Origin: Cetorhinus maximus
Lineage: Eukaryota
DNA: 64,000 nt
Assembly: GCF_964194155.1 (NCBI RefSeq)
Contig: NC_135895.1
Location: 59,086,001 to 59,150,000, forward strand
Direction: 5' to 3'
Below are positions 16,641 through 44,400 of the stretch, piece after piece. A program made the translations under genes and the position numbers. The notes under the pieces are model-generated. The model made no database searches, was not told where the DNA came from, and saw only the letters and a program-made list of their open reading frames with translations. The first letter of the stretch is position 1, and every line of letters starts with the position of its first letter.

Positions 16641-17862
16641 ACCAGAAATAAAAATTTTGGAAATACTTGGATCAGGCAGCATCTATCAAGAGAACAACCT
16701 TTCATCTGAACTTGGAAAAGTTAGAAATGTAATAGGTTTTAAGCAAGTTAAAGAGAGTTGAAAAGGAACAAAAAGGAAGGTCTATGGTGGGGTGGAAGAT
16801 GGGAGAGAGAATGACCAAGTTGTAGTGTAAAGCCAAAGGGAGTGATAATGGGGCAAGTAGAGAAACAAAAGTCGTCTCAAGGAGATGTTAATGGTAGAAT
16901 GATGCACAGCTGCTGTCTGAAAGCAAATACATGAGAAAAATGAGTAAAACTGAAAATGGAGGCAGAGATTGCAGTCTGAAATTTAAGACCACAACTCAAA
17001 CGCCTGTTTGAAAAATGAGCTGCGGTCATTGAGCTTGGAATTCTGCAGGAGGCTGAGGACAGAGAGCTCATGAGATGAAATTGGAGAAATAACAGGTGCC
17101 CAGAAGCTTGGTCATGCTTGCGGACTGAACAAAGGTGATCCACAAAGCAGTCAGTCAATCTGCATTTGGTCTCCCCATTATAGAGCAGACCACATTGAGC
17201 AGTGAGTACACTATGCTAAATTAAAAGAAGTACATGCAAATCACTTGGAGTGTTAAGGGCCTTGGATGGTGAGAGGATATAAAAGCACAAGTGTGGCATC
17301 TCCTGTGCACGTATGGAAAGATGCTGTGGAAGGGGATGGGTATTGGGGCTGACAGGAGTGGGCTAGGATGTTGCAAACAGAAGTTCCCTCAGAATGCTGA
17401 AAGAGGAGGGAAGGGGCAGATGTGTTTGGTGGTGGCATCACACTGCAAATGGCAGAAATGGTGGAGGATGATCCATTGATTATGGAGAATGGTGGGCTGG
17501 AAGGGGAGGGCAAGGGAAACCCTATCATGATTCTGGGAGGGAGGGGTGACAGCATAGTGCTGGAAATGGGGCTTTACCCCTTTTAATCCAATTTTTCATT
17601 TTAATTTTATTTATTCATTTGTTCTATTTATTTTTATCCCTTATCCCCAACACCAAGCCCCCATCTCCAGGCCATCAGTCACTTGTTTTTATGTTGTGCT
17701 TTCAGGGTGCTAATCTTTGTTCTGCTATCTTACTTCTATGCCACTCTCAGCAGATTTAGCCTTTAACACTCCCTTTGTCTTGTGTCCGTGACATCTTTTT
17801 CAATCTCTCCTGAGCTCCCACCTATCCCTGACCTTCCATTTTGCTCCACCTTTCTTCCAACC
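16641..17862. mobile_element. Older Penelope-like element: minus-strand GIY-YIG region plus pLTR (16641-17570) and a plus-strand pLTR piece (17575-17862)
   Basis: CFVDHLCSVRKHD resembles RFAEHLRSVCKH of the 34-kb element; gtgacatcttttt and ccacctatc match pLTR sequence at 35040-35080. Confidence 0.75.
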
Positions 17863-32400: not shown

Positions 32401-35400
32401 GTGAGAGAGAAATACTGATGAGTATAGTTATTAAACTGCATTTCTGTTTTGTCATGCAACTTAGATTGTGTGACTTTTCAATAAAATGCATTTCTTCTTT
32501 TAAAAAGTAGTAACCCAAGACCACATATTTGATCAGACTATTGGAATAATCATTTAGAAATAAAAGGAATAATTACTCATTTCAAATAATTAGTCATTTC
32601 AAAATGTCACTATGTATCAAAAGTAGCTGTTAAAGGATTGAGTGATGCAGTCCGTTAAAAATCATTTTGTCTTTGGAACTTGTTTTGGACCTTTGGAACC
32701 CAGCTCTCAATAGTGTGATGGAAGTCTCATTGTTGTCTGGTTGTAAGCACGTTATGTGAAATGATTTGCCAAGAGCCTAAATCTAATTAATTGCACAAAA
32801 CCCTACTTAAGGGATTTTCAAATTCCCAATTGTGGCAGGAGGCAGAAGTAGAGCTGTCACTCTGAGTCATGATTGGGACATTCTTATCTTTTAACTCATG
32901 CACTGGGCACAATTTGTAGGAGAAATATTGCATTACCACTATTCCAAAAATTCACCCCCCACCCCTGTAAAATATGAAAACTTAACTAGATTTCAGTAAT
33001 TTTCAAGATAAAACAATGAACTACTTTCCTCCTGTTTTTTTAATCTTATTTTTATTTTCAGAAGCTATAGCATCTAAGGCATATTTATGTGTGTATGTTT
33101 TTGAATTTTCCATTATGTTTCAGATGTCACAATTTATATTACACACAATTGGTCCATCTTAAAAATGCACAAAGGGAGGCGGGGATCTATTCGCTGACTG
33201 AGATGACATGACCTTTGTGCAAGTAGCAGAATCAAGTAGTTATCAAGGTAAAGAACTTTAAACAGTAATTGTATTAGTACCTAATTGACTTCCAGGCCTA
33301 CTTATTTAGATCATGTCCTCGTAGGAATGACTGAGCAGTGGCCATAACCCGAGACCAGGTTAGCAGCTCAATGTCACAATTTTGGGGTCCAATGCCACAG
33401 GAGGTCAGTTTGTTAGCCAAGATTGTTCTATCATTAAAGTAGAAATTGGATAAATATTCAAAGCAGAAGAAAATTCAGAACTTCATGGAGAGAACGCAGC
33501 AATGAGATTTAGTTAAAAGCAAAAAACTGCGGATGCTCGAAATCCAAAACAAAAACAAAAATACCTGTAAAAACTCAGCAGGTCCGGCAGCATCTGCAGA
33601 GAGGAACACAGTTAACGTTTCGAGTCCAAATGACCCTTCAACAGAACTAAGTAAAAATAGAAGAGAGGTGAAATATAAGCTTGTTTAAGGAGGTTGGGGT
33701 TGTTGGTGGGGGGGGGGGGGGGGGGGGTGGGACACGTAGACCTGGATAGAGGGCCACTGATAGGTGGAGATAACCAAAAGATGTCACAGGCAAAAGGACA
33801 AAGAGGTGTTGAAGGTGGTGATATTATCTAAGGAATGTGCTAATTAAGGGTAGAAAGCAGGACAAGCAAGGTACAGATAGCCCCAGTGAGGGTGGGGTGT
33901 GGTGAAGGAATCGAAAAAGGCTAAAAGGTAGAGATAAAACAATGGATGGAAATACATTTAAAAATAATGGAAATAGGTGGGAAAAGAAAAATATATATAA
34001 ATTATTGGGAAAAAAAGGTGGGGATCGGAAAGGGGATGGGGATGGAGGAGAGAGTTCATGATCTAAAATTGTTGAACTCAATATTCAGTCCGGAAGGCTG
34101 TGAAGTGCCTAGTCGGAAGATGAGGTGCTGTTCCTCCAGTTTGTGTTGCATCCGCCCTCACACCTTCCTCTCCCTCCCAGAAACATGATAGGGTCCCCCT
34201 TGTCCTCACTTATCACCCCACCAGCCTCCGCTTTCAAATGATCATCCTCCACCATTTCTGCCAACTCCAGCATGATGCCAACACCAAACACATCTTCCTT
34301 CACCCCCCCCCGGCGGCATTCCGCAGGGATCGTTCCCTCCGGGACACCCTGTTCCACTCTTCCATCACCCCCTATACCTGAACCCCCTCCACGGCACCTT
34401 CCCATGCAACCGCAGAAGGTGCAACACCTACCCCTTTACTTTCCCTCTCCTCACCGTCTAAGGGCCCAAACACTCCTTTCAAGTGAAGCAGCATTTCACT
34501 TGCACTTCCCTCAATTTAGACTACTGCATTCGTTGCTCCCAATGTGGTTTCCTCTACATTGGAGAGACCAAACGCAGGCTGGGTGACCGCTTTGCAGAAC
34601 ACCTTCGGTCTGTCTGCAAGCATTACCCAGGCCTCCCTGTCGCTTGCCATTTCAACACTCCACCCTGCTCTCATGCCCACATGTCTATCCTTGGCCTGCT
34701 GCATTGTTCCAGTGAAGCTCAACGCAAACTGGAGGAACAGCACCTCATCTTCCAACTAGGCACTTTACAGCCTTCTGGACTGGATATTGAGTTCAACAAT
34801 TTTAGATCCATCCCCACCCCCTTTTTTTCCCAATTTATATAGATTTTTCTTTTCCCATCTATTTCCATGATTTTTAAATGTATTTCCATCCATTGTTTTA
34901 TCTCTACCTTTTAGCCTTTTTCGATTCCTTCACCCCACCCCACCCCCACTGGGGCTATCTGTACCTTGCTTGTCCTGCTTTCTACCCTTAATTAGCACAT
35001 TCCTTAGATAATATCACCACCTTCAACACCTCTTTGTCCTTTTGTCTGTGACATCTTTTGGTTATCTCCACCTATCATTGGCCCTCTATCCAGCTTTACC
35101 TGTCCCACCGCGCGCCCCCCCCCCCCCCCCCCCCCCCACTTAAACCAGCTTATATTTCACCTCTCTTTATTTTTACTTAGTTCTGTTGAAGGGTCATTTA
35201 GACTCGAAACGTTAACTGTGTTCCTCTCCGCAGATGCTGCCAGACCTGCTGAGTTTTTACAGGTATTTTTGTTTTTGTTGTGAATGAGATTTAGTTTTGG
35301 ATTGCTCTAGCAAAAAACCAACACTGACACAATGGGCTGATTGGCTGCCATTTGGGTTGCGAGCTTCAATGTTTCTAGTCATTACTAAGACCTTGAATTC

Positions 35401-38400: not shown

Positions 38401-41400
38401 TTTTCAGACATTCCACCTCCCAAGTGTTGCTAGCCTTTCCTGTTTTTGTTTGATTTCCAGCACCTTCAATATTTTGCTTTTTGAATGAGTTGGGCCTACT
38501 AACTTGGATTATGCGCTTTTTCAAAGCTGTGACAAAAGAAAGATTAACGGTAACCTTCTAGTCAGTCAGAACTGTCAAAGTAGGGTTCAAAAGCGTAAAG
38601 ATTACCTAAACAGATTTTTCAATCCTCGGTAGAACAAAGCAACAATAGGTAAGGGTCTTTCTTTGCTGGAATAGCCAAAGTACATAATCTTGTTGCCTGA
38701 CACTAATTGGGAAATAACCCTGTTGAACAAGAGATCAGACAGCTGACTTTGAAGTGTTGCCACATAATACACAGGAGTATAGATCTACCCCATAATATAG
38801 AGAACCTTAAAATCTGAAAATGAACAGAACTCTGGTATCTCGCACTATCATATGAAATTCTGTCATTAAAATACATGATGACCCTTTAGGGTGTTTGACT
38901 GGGACAGAGGTGAAGAAATTTTTTGTTTATTAAACAATAATGACCCACTTTACCTGTTAATGTTGCTGAATGTTTCTGAGGAGGAACTTTAATCCAGTTG
39001 ATATTCAGATTAACTTTGCCATTTACTTCTGTCCATTCCACTACATATCCTTTCACTGAGGCTGACTGGATGTGATTTTCTGGCTCCATCCACTCAATTG
39101 AGAACTGGTTGTTTCCAGCATACATAGCTGAGATGTTTCTTGGTGGAGGAAGATCTGTCAATCAAAAAGTCAATAGATTATAAAAAGTGAGTACAGTCCT
39201 TTAGAGATGTCCAGGTCCTTTGGGCACGTAGCATTTATTCAGTGTGTAGTTGTATCATGCAGATCAACAAAATACTCAGTCAATATCTGGTCTGTGGCAT
39301 GTTATTTCTGCCAGTGCATGGATAATGTCATTGTAAATAGTCTTGACATCTCAGAGTTAGGGAGGGGATATCAGACATGTTGACCAGTTCAAGGAGTGAC
39401 AGCATCTAAGCTATGAGTTAAACTTTGATGCTTGTGACTAATTGGGAATTTTGCATCCAGCTCCCAACTACAAAAGTTTCTCACTGCAGTTTTAAACTTA
39501 AGACCTAAATTGGATGAACCACATCGGCACAACATTTTGCTGTGTTAGTTTAATCTTCTAATTTTGGACAATGCACAGTGATATACTCCCTCCTCAGTGT
39601 TCCACAGTCTTCAGAATATACTCATTGTTTAGGAGGATACCAGTGAAGGAAAAAGTTTTGCAGCTGTCAATAATGATGCTTTCTAATACAACAGGTGCTA
39701 AGTTGGATGTAGGAGTAGCAATGACCAGAGTTATATTGTTTCACCATGTTTCATCTCAAGAGTTAGGAAGGGGATATCAGGCAGGGCTCCTATTGCTGAT
39801 TGCTATCCAATGATCCCTGCTTCAAGTATGCAGCAATGGATATAGTTTGAGAACCGGTTCATCTATGATGTGTCTCACAGTGGAATATCATTGTCTAGTC
39901 TCAAACACCCAAAATAATTACTTGGGGAAGGTGCTGGCCAGCATCCATAGAAACATGTCCCAGCAGGAGCCATAACTTTCAGGAGAGATGGAGAGAAAAT
40001 TACTGAAGAAAAATATCCAAATATATCTGGGAAACATTCAAACAGTGAGTTCTGCTAAGGGAGGTGCAATATAATAATGCTTCATATAGCTGCTCGGAGC
40101 TTTTTTCTTCCTCTCCCATATGTCTAGAGCGTCCTGGGGTACAATTTCATGGAAGCTGATCATGTCTGGTTTTTTTCAACCATATAGATCAGTAAGACCT
40201 CAGGATCAATCCTGGTCTGCATGAAATTACCTGATCTCAGTTGCAGCAGAAATTCGGGTAACAATCAACCTTGGTGATGAACTGAACACAATTTAATTAC
40301 AGCGTTACTTTGTGGTCTTTGTGATTTAGCTCCACCTTAGCAAAATAAGAAATTGTGCATTATATGATGAAACGCTATAATATCTCTATTCTCTCTTTAT
40401 AAACAGCACATCATCTAATTTATCATGAGCAATGCCATGCTACATGTGCAAATGTTTTTAGAAAATTTCAGACCAGGTTTTGTAGGAGAGGTTCCAGTTG
40501 CTGTTCATAAGGCCTCTTCCCTCTAATGAAATCTGGTCTTCTATTGTAAAAGAATTCAAACATGTTGTCCCAAATTAGCCACTTGTGTCATGTATGGCTC
40601 CTGTCTTTTTGCAATTGTTAACTTACTTTCATGAAGGTATGTTCTTTGGAATTTCTCAAGGGAAAAGGAACATATAAGCGGAGCACTTATTGTTCAAAAT
40701 AACTCTCCTTTATGATGCTGTTACAGTTTTGAGGTTTTATGTTTGATAACCCTGTATTTTCTCAGCTTCCTGCCACTGAGATGCCATTAGTTTGGCAGAA
40801 ATATAGTAGAAACCTTGTTCACACAGTGTAAAAAGTTTGAGGAAACTCAAGGCTATAATCTCTGGTTATATGTCTGCAGTCTTTTGTAAGCAGACCTCAG
40901 ATCCCTACAAAGCATCTTTATTTCGCCAAATATTGAGATAATATTGAGTGCATGGCCAAGGAATTGTAACAGAATCCTTGTTCTGTATACCTGCTACTAG
41001 GATACACGTGAATTCTTCTGTCTTTATGTAAGGTGAACTGCATAGAATGATAAACAAAAACAGAATTACCTGGAAAAACTCAGCAGGTCTGCCAGACCTG
41101 CTGAGTTTTTCCAGGTAATTCTGTTTTTGTTTTGGTGCCAGACCTGCTGAGTTTTTCCAGGTAATTCTGTTTTTGTTTTGGATTTCCAGCATCCGCAGTA
41201 GCTTTTAGCTTTTTGTTTTTATGCATAGAATGATATGTTGATAGGGTGCGATGAAGTATGGTGAGAGGAGGCTCATGTACAGAATAAACACCAGCACAAG
41301 CCTGTGGGGCCAAGTGACCTATTCCCGTGTTGTAAAATTCCATGTAATTCGAAGAGGCAAATTCAACCAGTGTCTCTACCCTGGATATTATTTGGTGCCT

Positions 41401-44400
41401 TCTGCTGGAATTATGAATGTTACGTGAGTAAAGAATGATGCTCAATTAAACGTCACAATTAAACACCCAGCCAGTATATATGAAGAACAGCCATTTGAAT
41501 AGGGGAAAGCTGGCACTTGTAGAACCTTCGACCAGCACAAACTCGGGTTTTCAGGAGAAGGTTAGCTGGTTGGAAGTGGGGGGAAGAATAGGAGGCAGCT
41601 GAACAAAAAAAATTATATTTTAATGTTTCTCTTCAGTTTTTCTTCTCCTGATAGTTGCCCCTCATTCTCTCAAAACTGATAATGTTGCAAGAAGGTCTGA
41701 TGTAAAAACAGAAGCCTTTCTTTTACCTGTGAGGTGTGATATGTGGAGTTGAGTAGGTGGAGAGTTCCCCTTGGAGTTGTAAGCAGATACAGTGACGGTA
41801 CAGCCTGTCCTGGGGATTCCTATGGTGTACCTAGTCTGCTGTGCCCAGATGGTTGCATTTTCCTTTGTGCTTTTCCAAAGTGTTACATTGTAACCCAGGA
41901 TTCTTCCTCTGCTTTCAAGCACCTTGAGGGCCTATGATATTAAAAGCTGGTTAGTTAATTTTCTCCTCTTTAGGATTCAAGTTTAAAAAGATAGCAAACA
42001 CTTTGTTAATAAATACTGCTTTCGTCCCTCACCAGTAATCTCCAGTTTAAGGAAATAAAACAATCACATATTGAAACTAAGTCATGCTTTCAATGTTTTT
42101 TCGCCTTAGATGTGATGGGTGCATTTTTTTGCTGAGTTGCTAGGTAATTGAACACTGCTTCATTGCGCTAAGAGTTGTTTTGTTTCTTCCACATTGGGAT
42201 TTATTTTATCCTGAAAGAAGAACAATTATTGAGACTCTAAGGACAGTCTCAGTATCATTATTTAAAACGACAGGAGGTTAGGTTTATTTAGATGCAAACA
42301 GGCTGAATTCAAGCTGTGAACACTGGAGCAAATTAAATGTATAAAAATTGCAAAACTCAAGTAGTAGATACTCTTTCCATAGAGTAGTGGCTATAAGAAA
42401 TAGACATCTAACTAAATCAGTCAAGAGTGAATTGACTTGGATGAGTATCTATTAAGTACAGAGTTGAAGGTTATAGGACAAGTATTAATATAGGTACTCC
42501 CCAGAATCTAGGTAAGTCATTGTGCAATGCCGCTGGTTAGAGTTGTAAGTGAGTATACAGTCACAGAAAAATTATGGGATTGATTTTGAATTCGATGCTC
42601 TGGTGTAAAACTGTCATTGCAACCTGTCACCTGTTTTAGAAAGCACACAAGTTTAATTACCATTGAACCCATTTTGCCCTCGGGCAGCATGTTGAAAATC
42701 TATCTCAATAAATTTTAAGTTTACTTTTTTTAGGGGTGGGGGGGTTAGGGGGGTGATGATGGTTGGGTGTCAGCATTCTCTTCCTGGAGTTTATAGTTGG
42801 CCAATTAAATTACAGGACTGAGTGCATCATGATGAGAGCACAACTGGAAAAAAAATACACATGATGTGCGAGAAGACCTGGCTTAAACTAAAAGAGTTTT
42901 CTCTTACTTCAGTTATTCTTCAGTTCCTAAACGTACCCACTACTTTATATATAAAACTGTTCTCATTTGCAGCTGCCTGTGAAACCTTGAATCTTGGGTG
43001 ATGTGAGCAAAAACTGCACATTCATGAGTTTGGTGTTAGAGAACAGCCACAAATTGAATGATCCTCTGGTTAGGACTGAAGTTGAAGCTACAGAACCCTT
43101 ATTGAAATTCAACCCGTGAACTTTAAAAGAGCCTTGAGTGTGAATCTAATCTTTAGCAACACCTTAATTCAGATGATAAGAATCATGCTTAATTAGCTTA
43201 TCTGATAGCTCTTGAACAAAGGGCTTTTTTGCTATGAACACTTTTTTTCAAAATTTATACCCAGTATATATCAGAGGAATGCTAAGAGTGCAGTATATGT
43301 ATATAATACATATATTGCATATCTGGCACAATGAAAAAGACTTGCATCTATTTCATGCTTTTCATGATCTTAGGATACCTCGAAGTGATTTACAGCTAAT
43401 GAAAGACTTTTGAAGTGTAACCACTGTTGTAATGTAGAAAATGGGATAGCCAATTCAGCACACAAAGTTCTCACCAACAGCAATGTGATTTTTTTGTTAT
43501 ATTCGTTCATGGGATGTGGGTGTCACTGGCCAGGCCAGCATTTATTACCCACCCCTAATAACAGGATAATCTGTTTTTTATAATGTTGATTGAGGGAATA
43601 AATACTGGCCAGCACACTGGGAGTAATTCCAACTTTCTTTAAAAGAATGCCATGAGATCTTTAAGCCCTCCTGAAAGAGTAGACAGGGGCCCTCGTTTTA
43701 AGATGGCACCTTTGGTAGTACAGCACTCCTCAGTACTGCACGATCTCCTGACTCAGAGTGGGAGTGCTAACAGTTGAACCATGGTTTGATACTATGCATT
43801 TATATAACCAATACAACCAATGTTCAGTCCTGATAAAAGGTCATGAAACGCTGGGCTAGATTTTCATTCTCAAGGTGGGTAGAGCCTGCCCGGCCGGGGA
43901 GAAAGTGACTGCAAAGACCGAATTTTCATTGTGAGGAGTTGGCTACAGGGTGCAGTCAGGCCAGCCAACCTGGGAAAAGGTTTGGCAATTGGGGATGACC
44001 TAGCCAGCAACACCCACATAAAGTAAAGTACATGGGACATCTGGTTTGGTAGTCAATGGTTTATTTACTCATGTTTGCCTGGTAAGTATAACTAGACATT
44101 GATTTAGTGATTGAAATCTCTTACCTTCCATAAGAGAGTGATTCGCAGGTTGTTAGGATCTGACAGGTCCATTGTATACCAGACATCCAGTTGGCCTATG
44201 GGAACTATGCAATAACAAAAAAGAAACTTACTGAAATAAAGTAATAACCTGAAGTAAAAGGTTAATGTATATTCATTGTAAATAGCCATCTTTTTGTGGG
44301 TTTCACTGTAGGTTTCAATGCAGTAACCCTTCACTATCAGTTTGGTGGTGATAAAGCAGAAGGATTAACCAACATTATGCACATATGCGTACAATGTCAT

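What the first reader, a model, noticed from the sequence alone, without database searches (positions are those of the whole stretch)
41039..41235. 169-bp 'micro-Penelope': near-perfect 81-bp palindrome, tandem duplication and 14-bp TSD
Seen: arms 41052-41091 and 41093-41132 are exact 40-bp reverse complements around a 1-nt spacer. 41090-41135 is repeated exactly at 41136-41181. The unit consists only of the extreme pLTR end, just downstream of the hammerhead, and is flanked by tgcatagaatgata. Zero mismatches imply a young event. It is a miniature of the 33.5-kb structure and looks like a snapshot of PLE integration with repeated re-priming or template jumps. It also creates, in one step, a pre-miRNA-sized hairpin or cruciform in an intron, a possible route to new small-RNA loci.
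Basis: partly seen in the sequence, partly recalled or inferred. Interest (0 to 1): 0.7.

Follow-up and report, generated by a model that had tools for sequence, protein, structure and literature searches.

The report
Three-piece Penelope retrotransposon stub
This 169-base insert in a receptor gene's intron is a real, recent stub of a very common Penelope-like jumping gene, in a layout already described; its mirror half and extra repeat likely record both cut DNA ends copying one RNA and then being stitched together with one false start.

Summary
The anatomy is exact: 40-bp arms, a 46-bp duplication and a 14-bp TSD. A related species lacks the insert and has one TSD copy, so it is a recent single insertion. 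It is not a separate mini-element. It is a 5'-truncated, inverted copy of a Neptune-type Penelope-like element; its subfamily tail occurs 11,172 times in this genome. Twenty-two loci share the fold centre, a natural CTG-C-CAG, among 389 similar small inversions. In 88 sampled copies, inverted arms end at a short site, never carry the tail, and stop near where the tail arm stops. This favours both cut ends copying one RNA; the scan reached that reading before on other DNA. What this locus adds is the third piece. Fifteen other inserts with extra tandem pieces were found; in 10 of 16 the extra copy restarts where its neighbour starts, which points to a false start during joining. One relative has grown into a 20-copy minisatellite. 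The small-RNA idea is untested, and no listed read or contig bridged the duplication junction.

The parts
41039..41052 (+). Left copy of the 14-bp target-site duplication
   Evidence: Exact repeat; present once at the empty site in organism B
41053..41091 (-). Inverted short copy of the pLTR end (element positions +4 to about +43, where +1 is the base equivalent to 41136); outer end in the short-site zone, no tail
   Evidence: 37 of 46 measured inverted arms end at +38 to +53
41089..41095 (.). Inversion junction at the element's own 3-bp inverted micro-repeat (CTG-C-CAG); 41089-41091 can be read as part of either arm
   Evidence: Sequence; same centre at 22 loci
41089..41135 (+). Middle direct copy (-1 to +46), the extra piece; runs 3 nt of element sequence beyond the inverted arm
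41136..41221 (+). Outer direct copy (+1 to +86) with the ~40-nt tail (41182-41221) of the young subfamily
41222..41235 (+). Right copy of the 14-bp target-site duplication
33501..35296 (.). Context: separate, larger insertion of a related subfamily (inverted tail arm 33515-34148; direct arm with GIY-YIG end 34150-35282; 14-bp TSD at 33501 and 35283)
41727..41931 (-). Context: upstream host exon region (fn3 domain); donor after 41727; the upper bound is the stop-to-stop frame, not a mapped acceptor
38889..39154 (-). Context: downstream host exon region (fn3 domain); acceptor before 39154; the lower bound is the stop-to-stop frame

Best explanation
This is one recent insertion of a Neptune-type Penelope-like retrotransposon, likely made when both ends of a 14-nt staggered cut copied the same RNA from two start sites and the two short copies were likely joined with one false start that left the 46-bp repeat. 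Shown: insertion with a TSD into an empty site, family identity, a short end on one side and the tail on the other, and a junction at a natural micro-repeat. Inferred steps: (1) the right DNA end primes at the tail site (+86) and the left end at the short site (+43); (2) both copies stop near position 0, at a break or pause in one shared RNA; (3) their 3' ends pair through CTG/CAG; (4) fill-in runs 46 nt, lets go (helped by the new strand folding on itself), re-pairs at the start of the template through a 2-nt match with a terminal mismatch, and finishes. Step 4 could be done by a polymerase-theta-type repair enzyme or by the element's own RT. The product is most likely an inert intronic hairpin.
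For: Empty site: the joint skips 183 nt with 14 letters fitting both sides in 2 of 2 organism-B runs from two studies. TSD median 14; 34 of 45 are 13-15 bp (45 TSDs in 49 inverted loci of 88). Of 88 tail-bearing copies, 55 are inverted, 26 direct only and 7 censored; 0 of 46 measured inverted arms carry the tail and 37 of 46 end at +38 to +53. Arm stop points lie within 30 nt in 36 of 55 (permutation mean 10.0, maximum 19 in 20,000) and in 11 of 24 when both arms reach 150 nt or more (expected 1.5). When unequal, the short-site arm goes further in 15 and the tail arm in 4 (p=0.019), which a simple fold-back of the tail copy cannot give. Arms share subfamily variants: 25 of 35 identical over 50 nt, mean 0.31 differences against about 2.4 between loci (L072 and L119 dropped as mis-anchored). 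Two RT start sites and extension of both target strands are shown in vitro for an anole PLE (PMC11167929). In 16 hand-picked multi-piece inserts, same-orientation copies start within 7 nt in 10 (null 3.8, p=0.00035), while middle-copy ends vary (+2 to +68, read).
Against: No experiment on this family; the in-vitro data are from a different clade (Poseidon). Three inserts (L177, L183, L211) carry the same private tandem junction on both arms, and L166's middle copy ends with 2 nt complementary to its own TSD (1 in 16 by chance). Both point to DNA-templated copying between arms, which could also explain arm identity and equal stop points without a shared RNA. The tail arm reaches further in 4 of 55. 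The 16-locus set is hand-picked, includes the window, uses BLAST end points, and comes from patterns that restrict the range. The window's tandem junction has no perfect microhomology. The duplication is not bridged by any listed read or contig.
Confidence: 0.55

Rival explanations
1. Same two-ended priming, but the extra copy comes from the RT itself: after running off the RNA at +1, it restarts at its short start site (+46) on the same RNA, using the cDNA end as primer.
For: The window's middle copy ends at +46, inside the short-site zone, and the junction is blunt, as fits homology-free initiation (PMC11167929). L227 has three direct copies, two ending near +42 and all starting near -24, with no inverted arm.
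Against: Only 5 of the 16 curated middle copies end at +38 to +53; most end at +16 to +33 (read).
Confidence: 0.25
2. Fold-back (self-priming): one cDNA snaps back and copies itself to make the mirror arm, and repeated snap-backs make the extra copy. Arkhipova and colleagues proposed self-priming for PLE junction palindromes.
For: PMC3846280 discussion passage; near-equal stop points; mirrored private junctions in L177, L183, L211; flank-complementary 2 nt in L166.
Against: In 15 of 55 loci the short arm holds sequence absent from the tail arm, by up to kilobases. In the window, the middle copy ends with 3 element bases that the inverted arm lacks.
Confidence: 0.12
3. An ordinary two-piece palindromic insertion gained the 46-bp repeat later, by replication slippage next to the hairpin.
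For: The window's outer copy lies wholly within the span of the middle copy, so this is possible. L186 shows later expansion of the equivalent unit to 20 copies.
Against: No clean microhomology at the junction. In L172, L175, L180 and L198 the outer copy starts upstream of the inner one, which slippage from the inner copy cannot produce.
Confidence: 0.06
4. The duplication, or the whole structure, is an assembly artefact.
For: No listed piece bridges the internal junction.
Against: Empty site and TSD in the relative; both outer junctions in short-read contigs; the same three-piece layout at independent loci such as L166.
Confidence: 0.02

Closest known systems
Endonuclease-bearing Penelope-like insertions with partial tandem, adjacent inverted 5'-truncated copy, one-sided 30-40-bp tail and TSD (Pen2a_Av in PMC3846280; Fig. 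2 legend and text of PMC8557442; passages read)
   Same: Inverted copy plus direct tandem copies, tail at one end, TSD, palindrome at the inversion junction.
   Different: No ORF and no hammerhead; pieces are only 39-86 nt; TSD is 14 bp against 8-10 bp in the Adineta examples; the tandem is a junction-anchored repeat, not two pLTRs around an ORF.
PAc (Poseidon from Anolis) in-vitro system, PMC11167929 (parts 1-2 of 4 read)
   Same: Two internal RT start sites that define the tail; both target strands cut and extended.
   Different: This family has the Neptune/Nematis CX4CxxC linker. The parts read do not explain inverted or multi-piece products.
Polymerase-theta templated insertions (PMC4912351, abstract and outline only; PMC11724301, search listing only)
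   Same: Abortive templated synthesis in cis or trans at joined 3' ends, giving short direct or inverted repeats at a junction.
   Different: Shown at double-strand breaks, not at PLE junctions; the enzyme here is unknown.
L1 twin priming (recalled, no call)
   Same: Both target strands prime on one RNA and join by microhomology, giving an inversion within one TSD.
   Different: L1's two cDNAs cover consecutive, non-overlapping RNA segments; here they cover the same segment, which gives a palindrome.
Non-LTR retrozymes (bioRxiv 10.64898/2026.07.22.740005, part 1 of 5 read)
   Same: Short, non-coding, PLE-derived tandem units.
   Different: Defined by a hammerhead in each unit; this insert starts about 24 nt downstream of the predicted cut and has none.

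Membership tests
Endonuclease-bearing PLE (parent family) | RT plus C-terminal GIY-YIG endonuclease in one ORF between pLTRs | tested here: met
   L148 is pLTR-ORF-pLTR with a 3,323-nt unit and frameshifts; RVT_1 E=3e-7; GIY-YIG E=0.0014 (below the Pfam cut-off) on the window's 33.5-kb copy; GIY-YIG with two internal cysteines seen in translations. The insert itself holds no coding sequence.
Endonuclease-bearing PLE (parent family) | 30-40-bp tail at one end only | tested here: met
   Tail 41182-41221 on the right only; 0 of 46 measured inverted arms carry it.
Endonuclease-bearing PLE (parent family) | Inverted 5'-truncated copy and partial tandem within one TSD | tested here: met
Endonuclease-bearing PLE (parent family) | Hammerhead ribozyme in the pLTR | tested here: inconclusive
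   A hammerhead-like fold with a non-standard core lies at about -62 to -20 in a young copy; no Rfam hammerhead match; cleavage untested. Absent from the insert.
Neptune/Nematis clades | CX2-5CxxC motif in the RT-EN linker (PMC8557442) | tested here: met
   CX4CxxC just before the GIY-YIG in 6 of 6 young copies whose printed frame covers it, and in L148.
Neptune/Nematis clades | RT phylogeny placing it in Neptune rather than Nematis | not tested
   No reference sequences fetched; 'Neptune-type' rests on the linker motif.
Penelope/Poseidon clade | Linker Zn-finger absent | tested here: not met
   Motif present.
Self-propagating non-autonomous mini-element (MITE-like) | Many copies of one fixed unit with shared ends and junction | tested here: not met
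   0 of the other 21 same-centre loci carry the 46-bp duplication; arm lengths, tail variants and centre letter (13 C, 9 G) differ; the window's exact tandem junction is 1 of 8 different ones.
Non-LTR retrozyme | Hammerhead in each of two or more tandem units | tested here: not met
   Units span -1 to +86, downstream of the hammerhead-like fold.
Pre-miRNA or small-RNA locus | Processed small RNA with defined ends | not testable with these tools
   No small-RNA data; the hairpin fold alone is not evidence.

The most novel reading that the evidence does not exclude
Multi-piece stubs like this one are frozen intermediates of the unsolved Penelope integration cycle: a dimeric RT copies one RNA from both cut ends, and repeated restarts anchored at the cDNA junction build the tandem and inverted layouts, sometimes seeding hairpin-anchored minisatellites. 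About 11,000 species-specific copies would make this directly testable.
Probability: 0.4. Interest if true: 0.6.

Novelty: new member of a known kind. Interest (0 to 1): 0.32.

Why it matters
How Penelope-like elements make their tandem and inverted insertions is described as still undefined (PMC8557442). This locus is ordinary on its own, but it belongs to a rare class of multi-piece stubs whose junctions separate the candidate mechanisms. The subfamily is young and large, so a genome-wide junction tally would be decisive. Biological effect on the host gene is unlikely and untested.

Tried and rejected
(1) A fixed, cap-like 'GG' 5' stop before +1: suggested but an ascertainment effect. Of 123 genome hits, 30 were read and most were a single substitution in native context; 0 of 88 unbiased tails showed it. 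(2) A dedicated mini-element family: rejected. (3) Hammerhead cut as the stop signal: 0 of 30 short tail arms stop at -24, and the window's pieces stop near 0; only L227 (clear) and L231 (possible) restart there. (4) L176, L226, L203, L167, L168, L169 and L173 were dropped from the multi-piece set as probable second insertions into older copies; 18 of the 59 loci were skipped as repeats of the same place. (5) One search's arm identities included the centre and were not used. (6) Rfam: no family at the gathering score in the window; miRNA matches on L145 are below the gathering score and reflect a perfect hairpin. (7) No RNA holder listed. (8) Raw-read run X21, a second individual of the window's species, did not cover the unique flanks, so polymorphism is open. 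(9) Literature searches found no paper joining PLEs with twin priming or describing these stubs: (open-access library only; hits seen as listings). Supplements were not read; PMC11167929 Fig. S2 may bear on genomic ends.

Full report
Observation. All stated coordinates hold: 40-bp arms around one C, an exact 46-bp duplication, an exact 14-bp TSD and a 169-bp insert. Numbering below sets +1 at the base equivalent to 41136. The insert has three pieces: an inverted copy (+4 to about +43), a direct copy (-1 to +46) and a direct copy with tail (+1 to +86).

It is a real, recent insertion. Contigs from two runs of a related organism (two studies) join 41038 to 41222, with 14 letters fitting either side; the flanks differ at 41-42 of about 1,300 positions. 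In the window's own species both outer junctions lie in contigs with 0 mismatches (one sample, possibly the assembly's source). At 99% likeness, a third run of the relative has no depth over the young tail at 41207-41232, which suggests the subfamily spread after the split; contigs show presence better than absence, so this is a hint. The internal tandem junction was not bridged by any listed piece.

Family. The window is G000:C18:59086001-59150000 in a 4.0-Gb genome. A 20-nt tail motif occurs 11,172 times. L148 is a frameshifted full-length copy, pLTR-ORF-pLTR, with a 3,323-nt unit. It has an RT domain and a GIY-YIG preceded by CX4CxxC, the linker motif of Neptune and Nematis that Penelope/Poseidon lack (PMC8557442). 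The 33.5-kb insertion has its own 14-bp TSD and is a related subfamily, 85-88% identical over the shared ends. The insert begins about 24 nt downstream of the predicted hammerhead cut (prediction by eye and RNAfold, no Rfam support).

The palindrome is common. The exact centre occurs at 22 loci, and all 22 were read. Eighteen of the other 21 are two-piece palindromes with a one-sided tail, from several tail variants, with either centre letter and different arm lengths; none has the duplication. Allowing up to 30 nt between arms gives 389 loci with varied junctions, many at short natural inverted matches (50 loci seen). So the centre recurs because the element contains CTG-C-CAG, not because a mini-element spreads.

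Rules of the family. I took 88 distinct tail-bearing copies from 85 loci, drawn from the first 100 listed hits on C1. Of these, 55 are inverted, 26 direct only and 7 censored. TSDs have median 14 (45 found). Inverted arms end at +38 to +53 in 37 of 46 and never include the tail. The two arms stop within 30 nt of each other in 36 of 55 (permutation mean 10.0, maximum 19), also when long (11 of 24 against 1.5). When unequal, the short-site arm usually goes further (15 against 4). Arms share subfamily variants (25 of 35 identical over 50 nt). With the in-vitro finding of two RT start sites and extension of both target strands (PMC11167929), this favours both ends priming on one RNA. End points are BLAST-based, and natural palindromes near the hammerhead inflate equalities among short arms. 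I reached this reading, which shows 282 earlier scan notes holding the same search words; those are AI notes and not independent support.

The third piece. Tandem junctions are rare: 8 loci for the window's type, and 29 plus 86 hits for periods 16-46 and 47-77, many being arrays or second insertions. I parsed 41 of the 59 fetched loci and the 8, and kept 16 probable single events for a test, including the window and L088 from the unbiased sample. Same-orientation copies start within 7 nt in 10 of 16 (null 3.8, p=0.00035), while middle-copy ends vary and only 5 of 16 fall in the short-site zone. L166 has the window's exact layout in another subfamily with a 15-bp TSD. This pattern suits abortive fill-in from the junction followed by re-pairing at the same start, as described for polymerase theta (PMC4912351, abstract only). 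In the window, the new strand's last three bases would match two of three template bases in register. RT restart at the short site remains a serious rival for this locus. Three further inserts (L177, L183, L211) have the same private junction on both arms, which shows that copying between arms, or a tandem template, occurs at least sometimes and weakens the shared-RNA argument. L186 carries 20 tandem copies of the equivalent 46-48-bp unit beside an inverted arm.

Host context and small RNA. Pfam scans of 268 of 360 stop-to-stop frames found an Ig-like and three fn3 frames, all on the minus strand; the exon after the insert matches IL-12 receptor beta-2 weakly (E=0.0011, behind titin and PTPRD hits). 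The gene is likely a gp130-type cytokine receptor. The insert sits about 500 nt from the donor of a 2.57-kb intron. It folds strongly on either strand, but hundreds of such hairpins exist in this genome and no RNA data were available.

Verdict. The layout is known (PMC3846280; PMC8557442). The locus is a new, miniature member of that kind. Its value is as one of a small class of multi-piece stubs that help test the integration mechanism. Interest 0.32.

Noticed in passing
L186 (G000:C9, about 11926250-11927250): An older-subfamily inverted arm is followed by 20 tandem copies of the 46-48-bp unit equivalent to the window's duplicated piece: a minisatellite apparently seeded by this kind of stub. 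No TSD found.
   Followed up: partly
L177, L183, L211: TSD-bounded 4-5-piece palindromes with the same private tandem junction on both arms; in L177 and L183 the tail arm has three units and the short arm two, with one base differing at the junction.
   Followed up: partly
L227 (G000:C7, about 68494340-68494620): Three direct copies plus a 10-nt fragment all start at or next to the predicted hammerhead cut (-24), inside one TSD; a possible trace of ribozyme cleavage in vivo. Not seen in 30 short unbiased tail arms.
   Followed up: partly
G000:C10:38300213-38300515, C11:109323182-109323338, C33:17680630-17680786: Tandem arrays of a 73-nt unit that contains the hammerhead-like fold, joined at a recurring short match; retrozyme-like.
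   Followed up: no
L191: The 14-bp TSD occurs three times, once inside the insert between two direct copies.
   Followed up: no
L007, L072, L134: Young insertions sitting inside other copies of the same family.
   Followed up: no
window 41038-41070, minus strand: On the host gene's strand the insert adds a donor-like CAG/GT site near 41070 and a pyrimidine-rich stretch before an acceptor-like site at 41038.
   Followed up: no
window 31218-53197, minus strand: Exons of a likely gp130-type cytokine receptor gene (Ig-like plus fn3 domains) span the region; the 33.5-kb insertion also lies between its fn3 exons.
   Followed up: partly
Young subfamily, genome-wide: About 11,000 copies of a tail variant not seen in one run of a relative only about 3% diverged: a likely large recent burst.
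   Followed up: partly
window 17107-17546, minus strand: An older fragment of the same family, 71% identical to the 33.5-kb copy.
   Followed up: no
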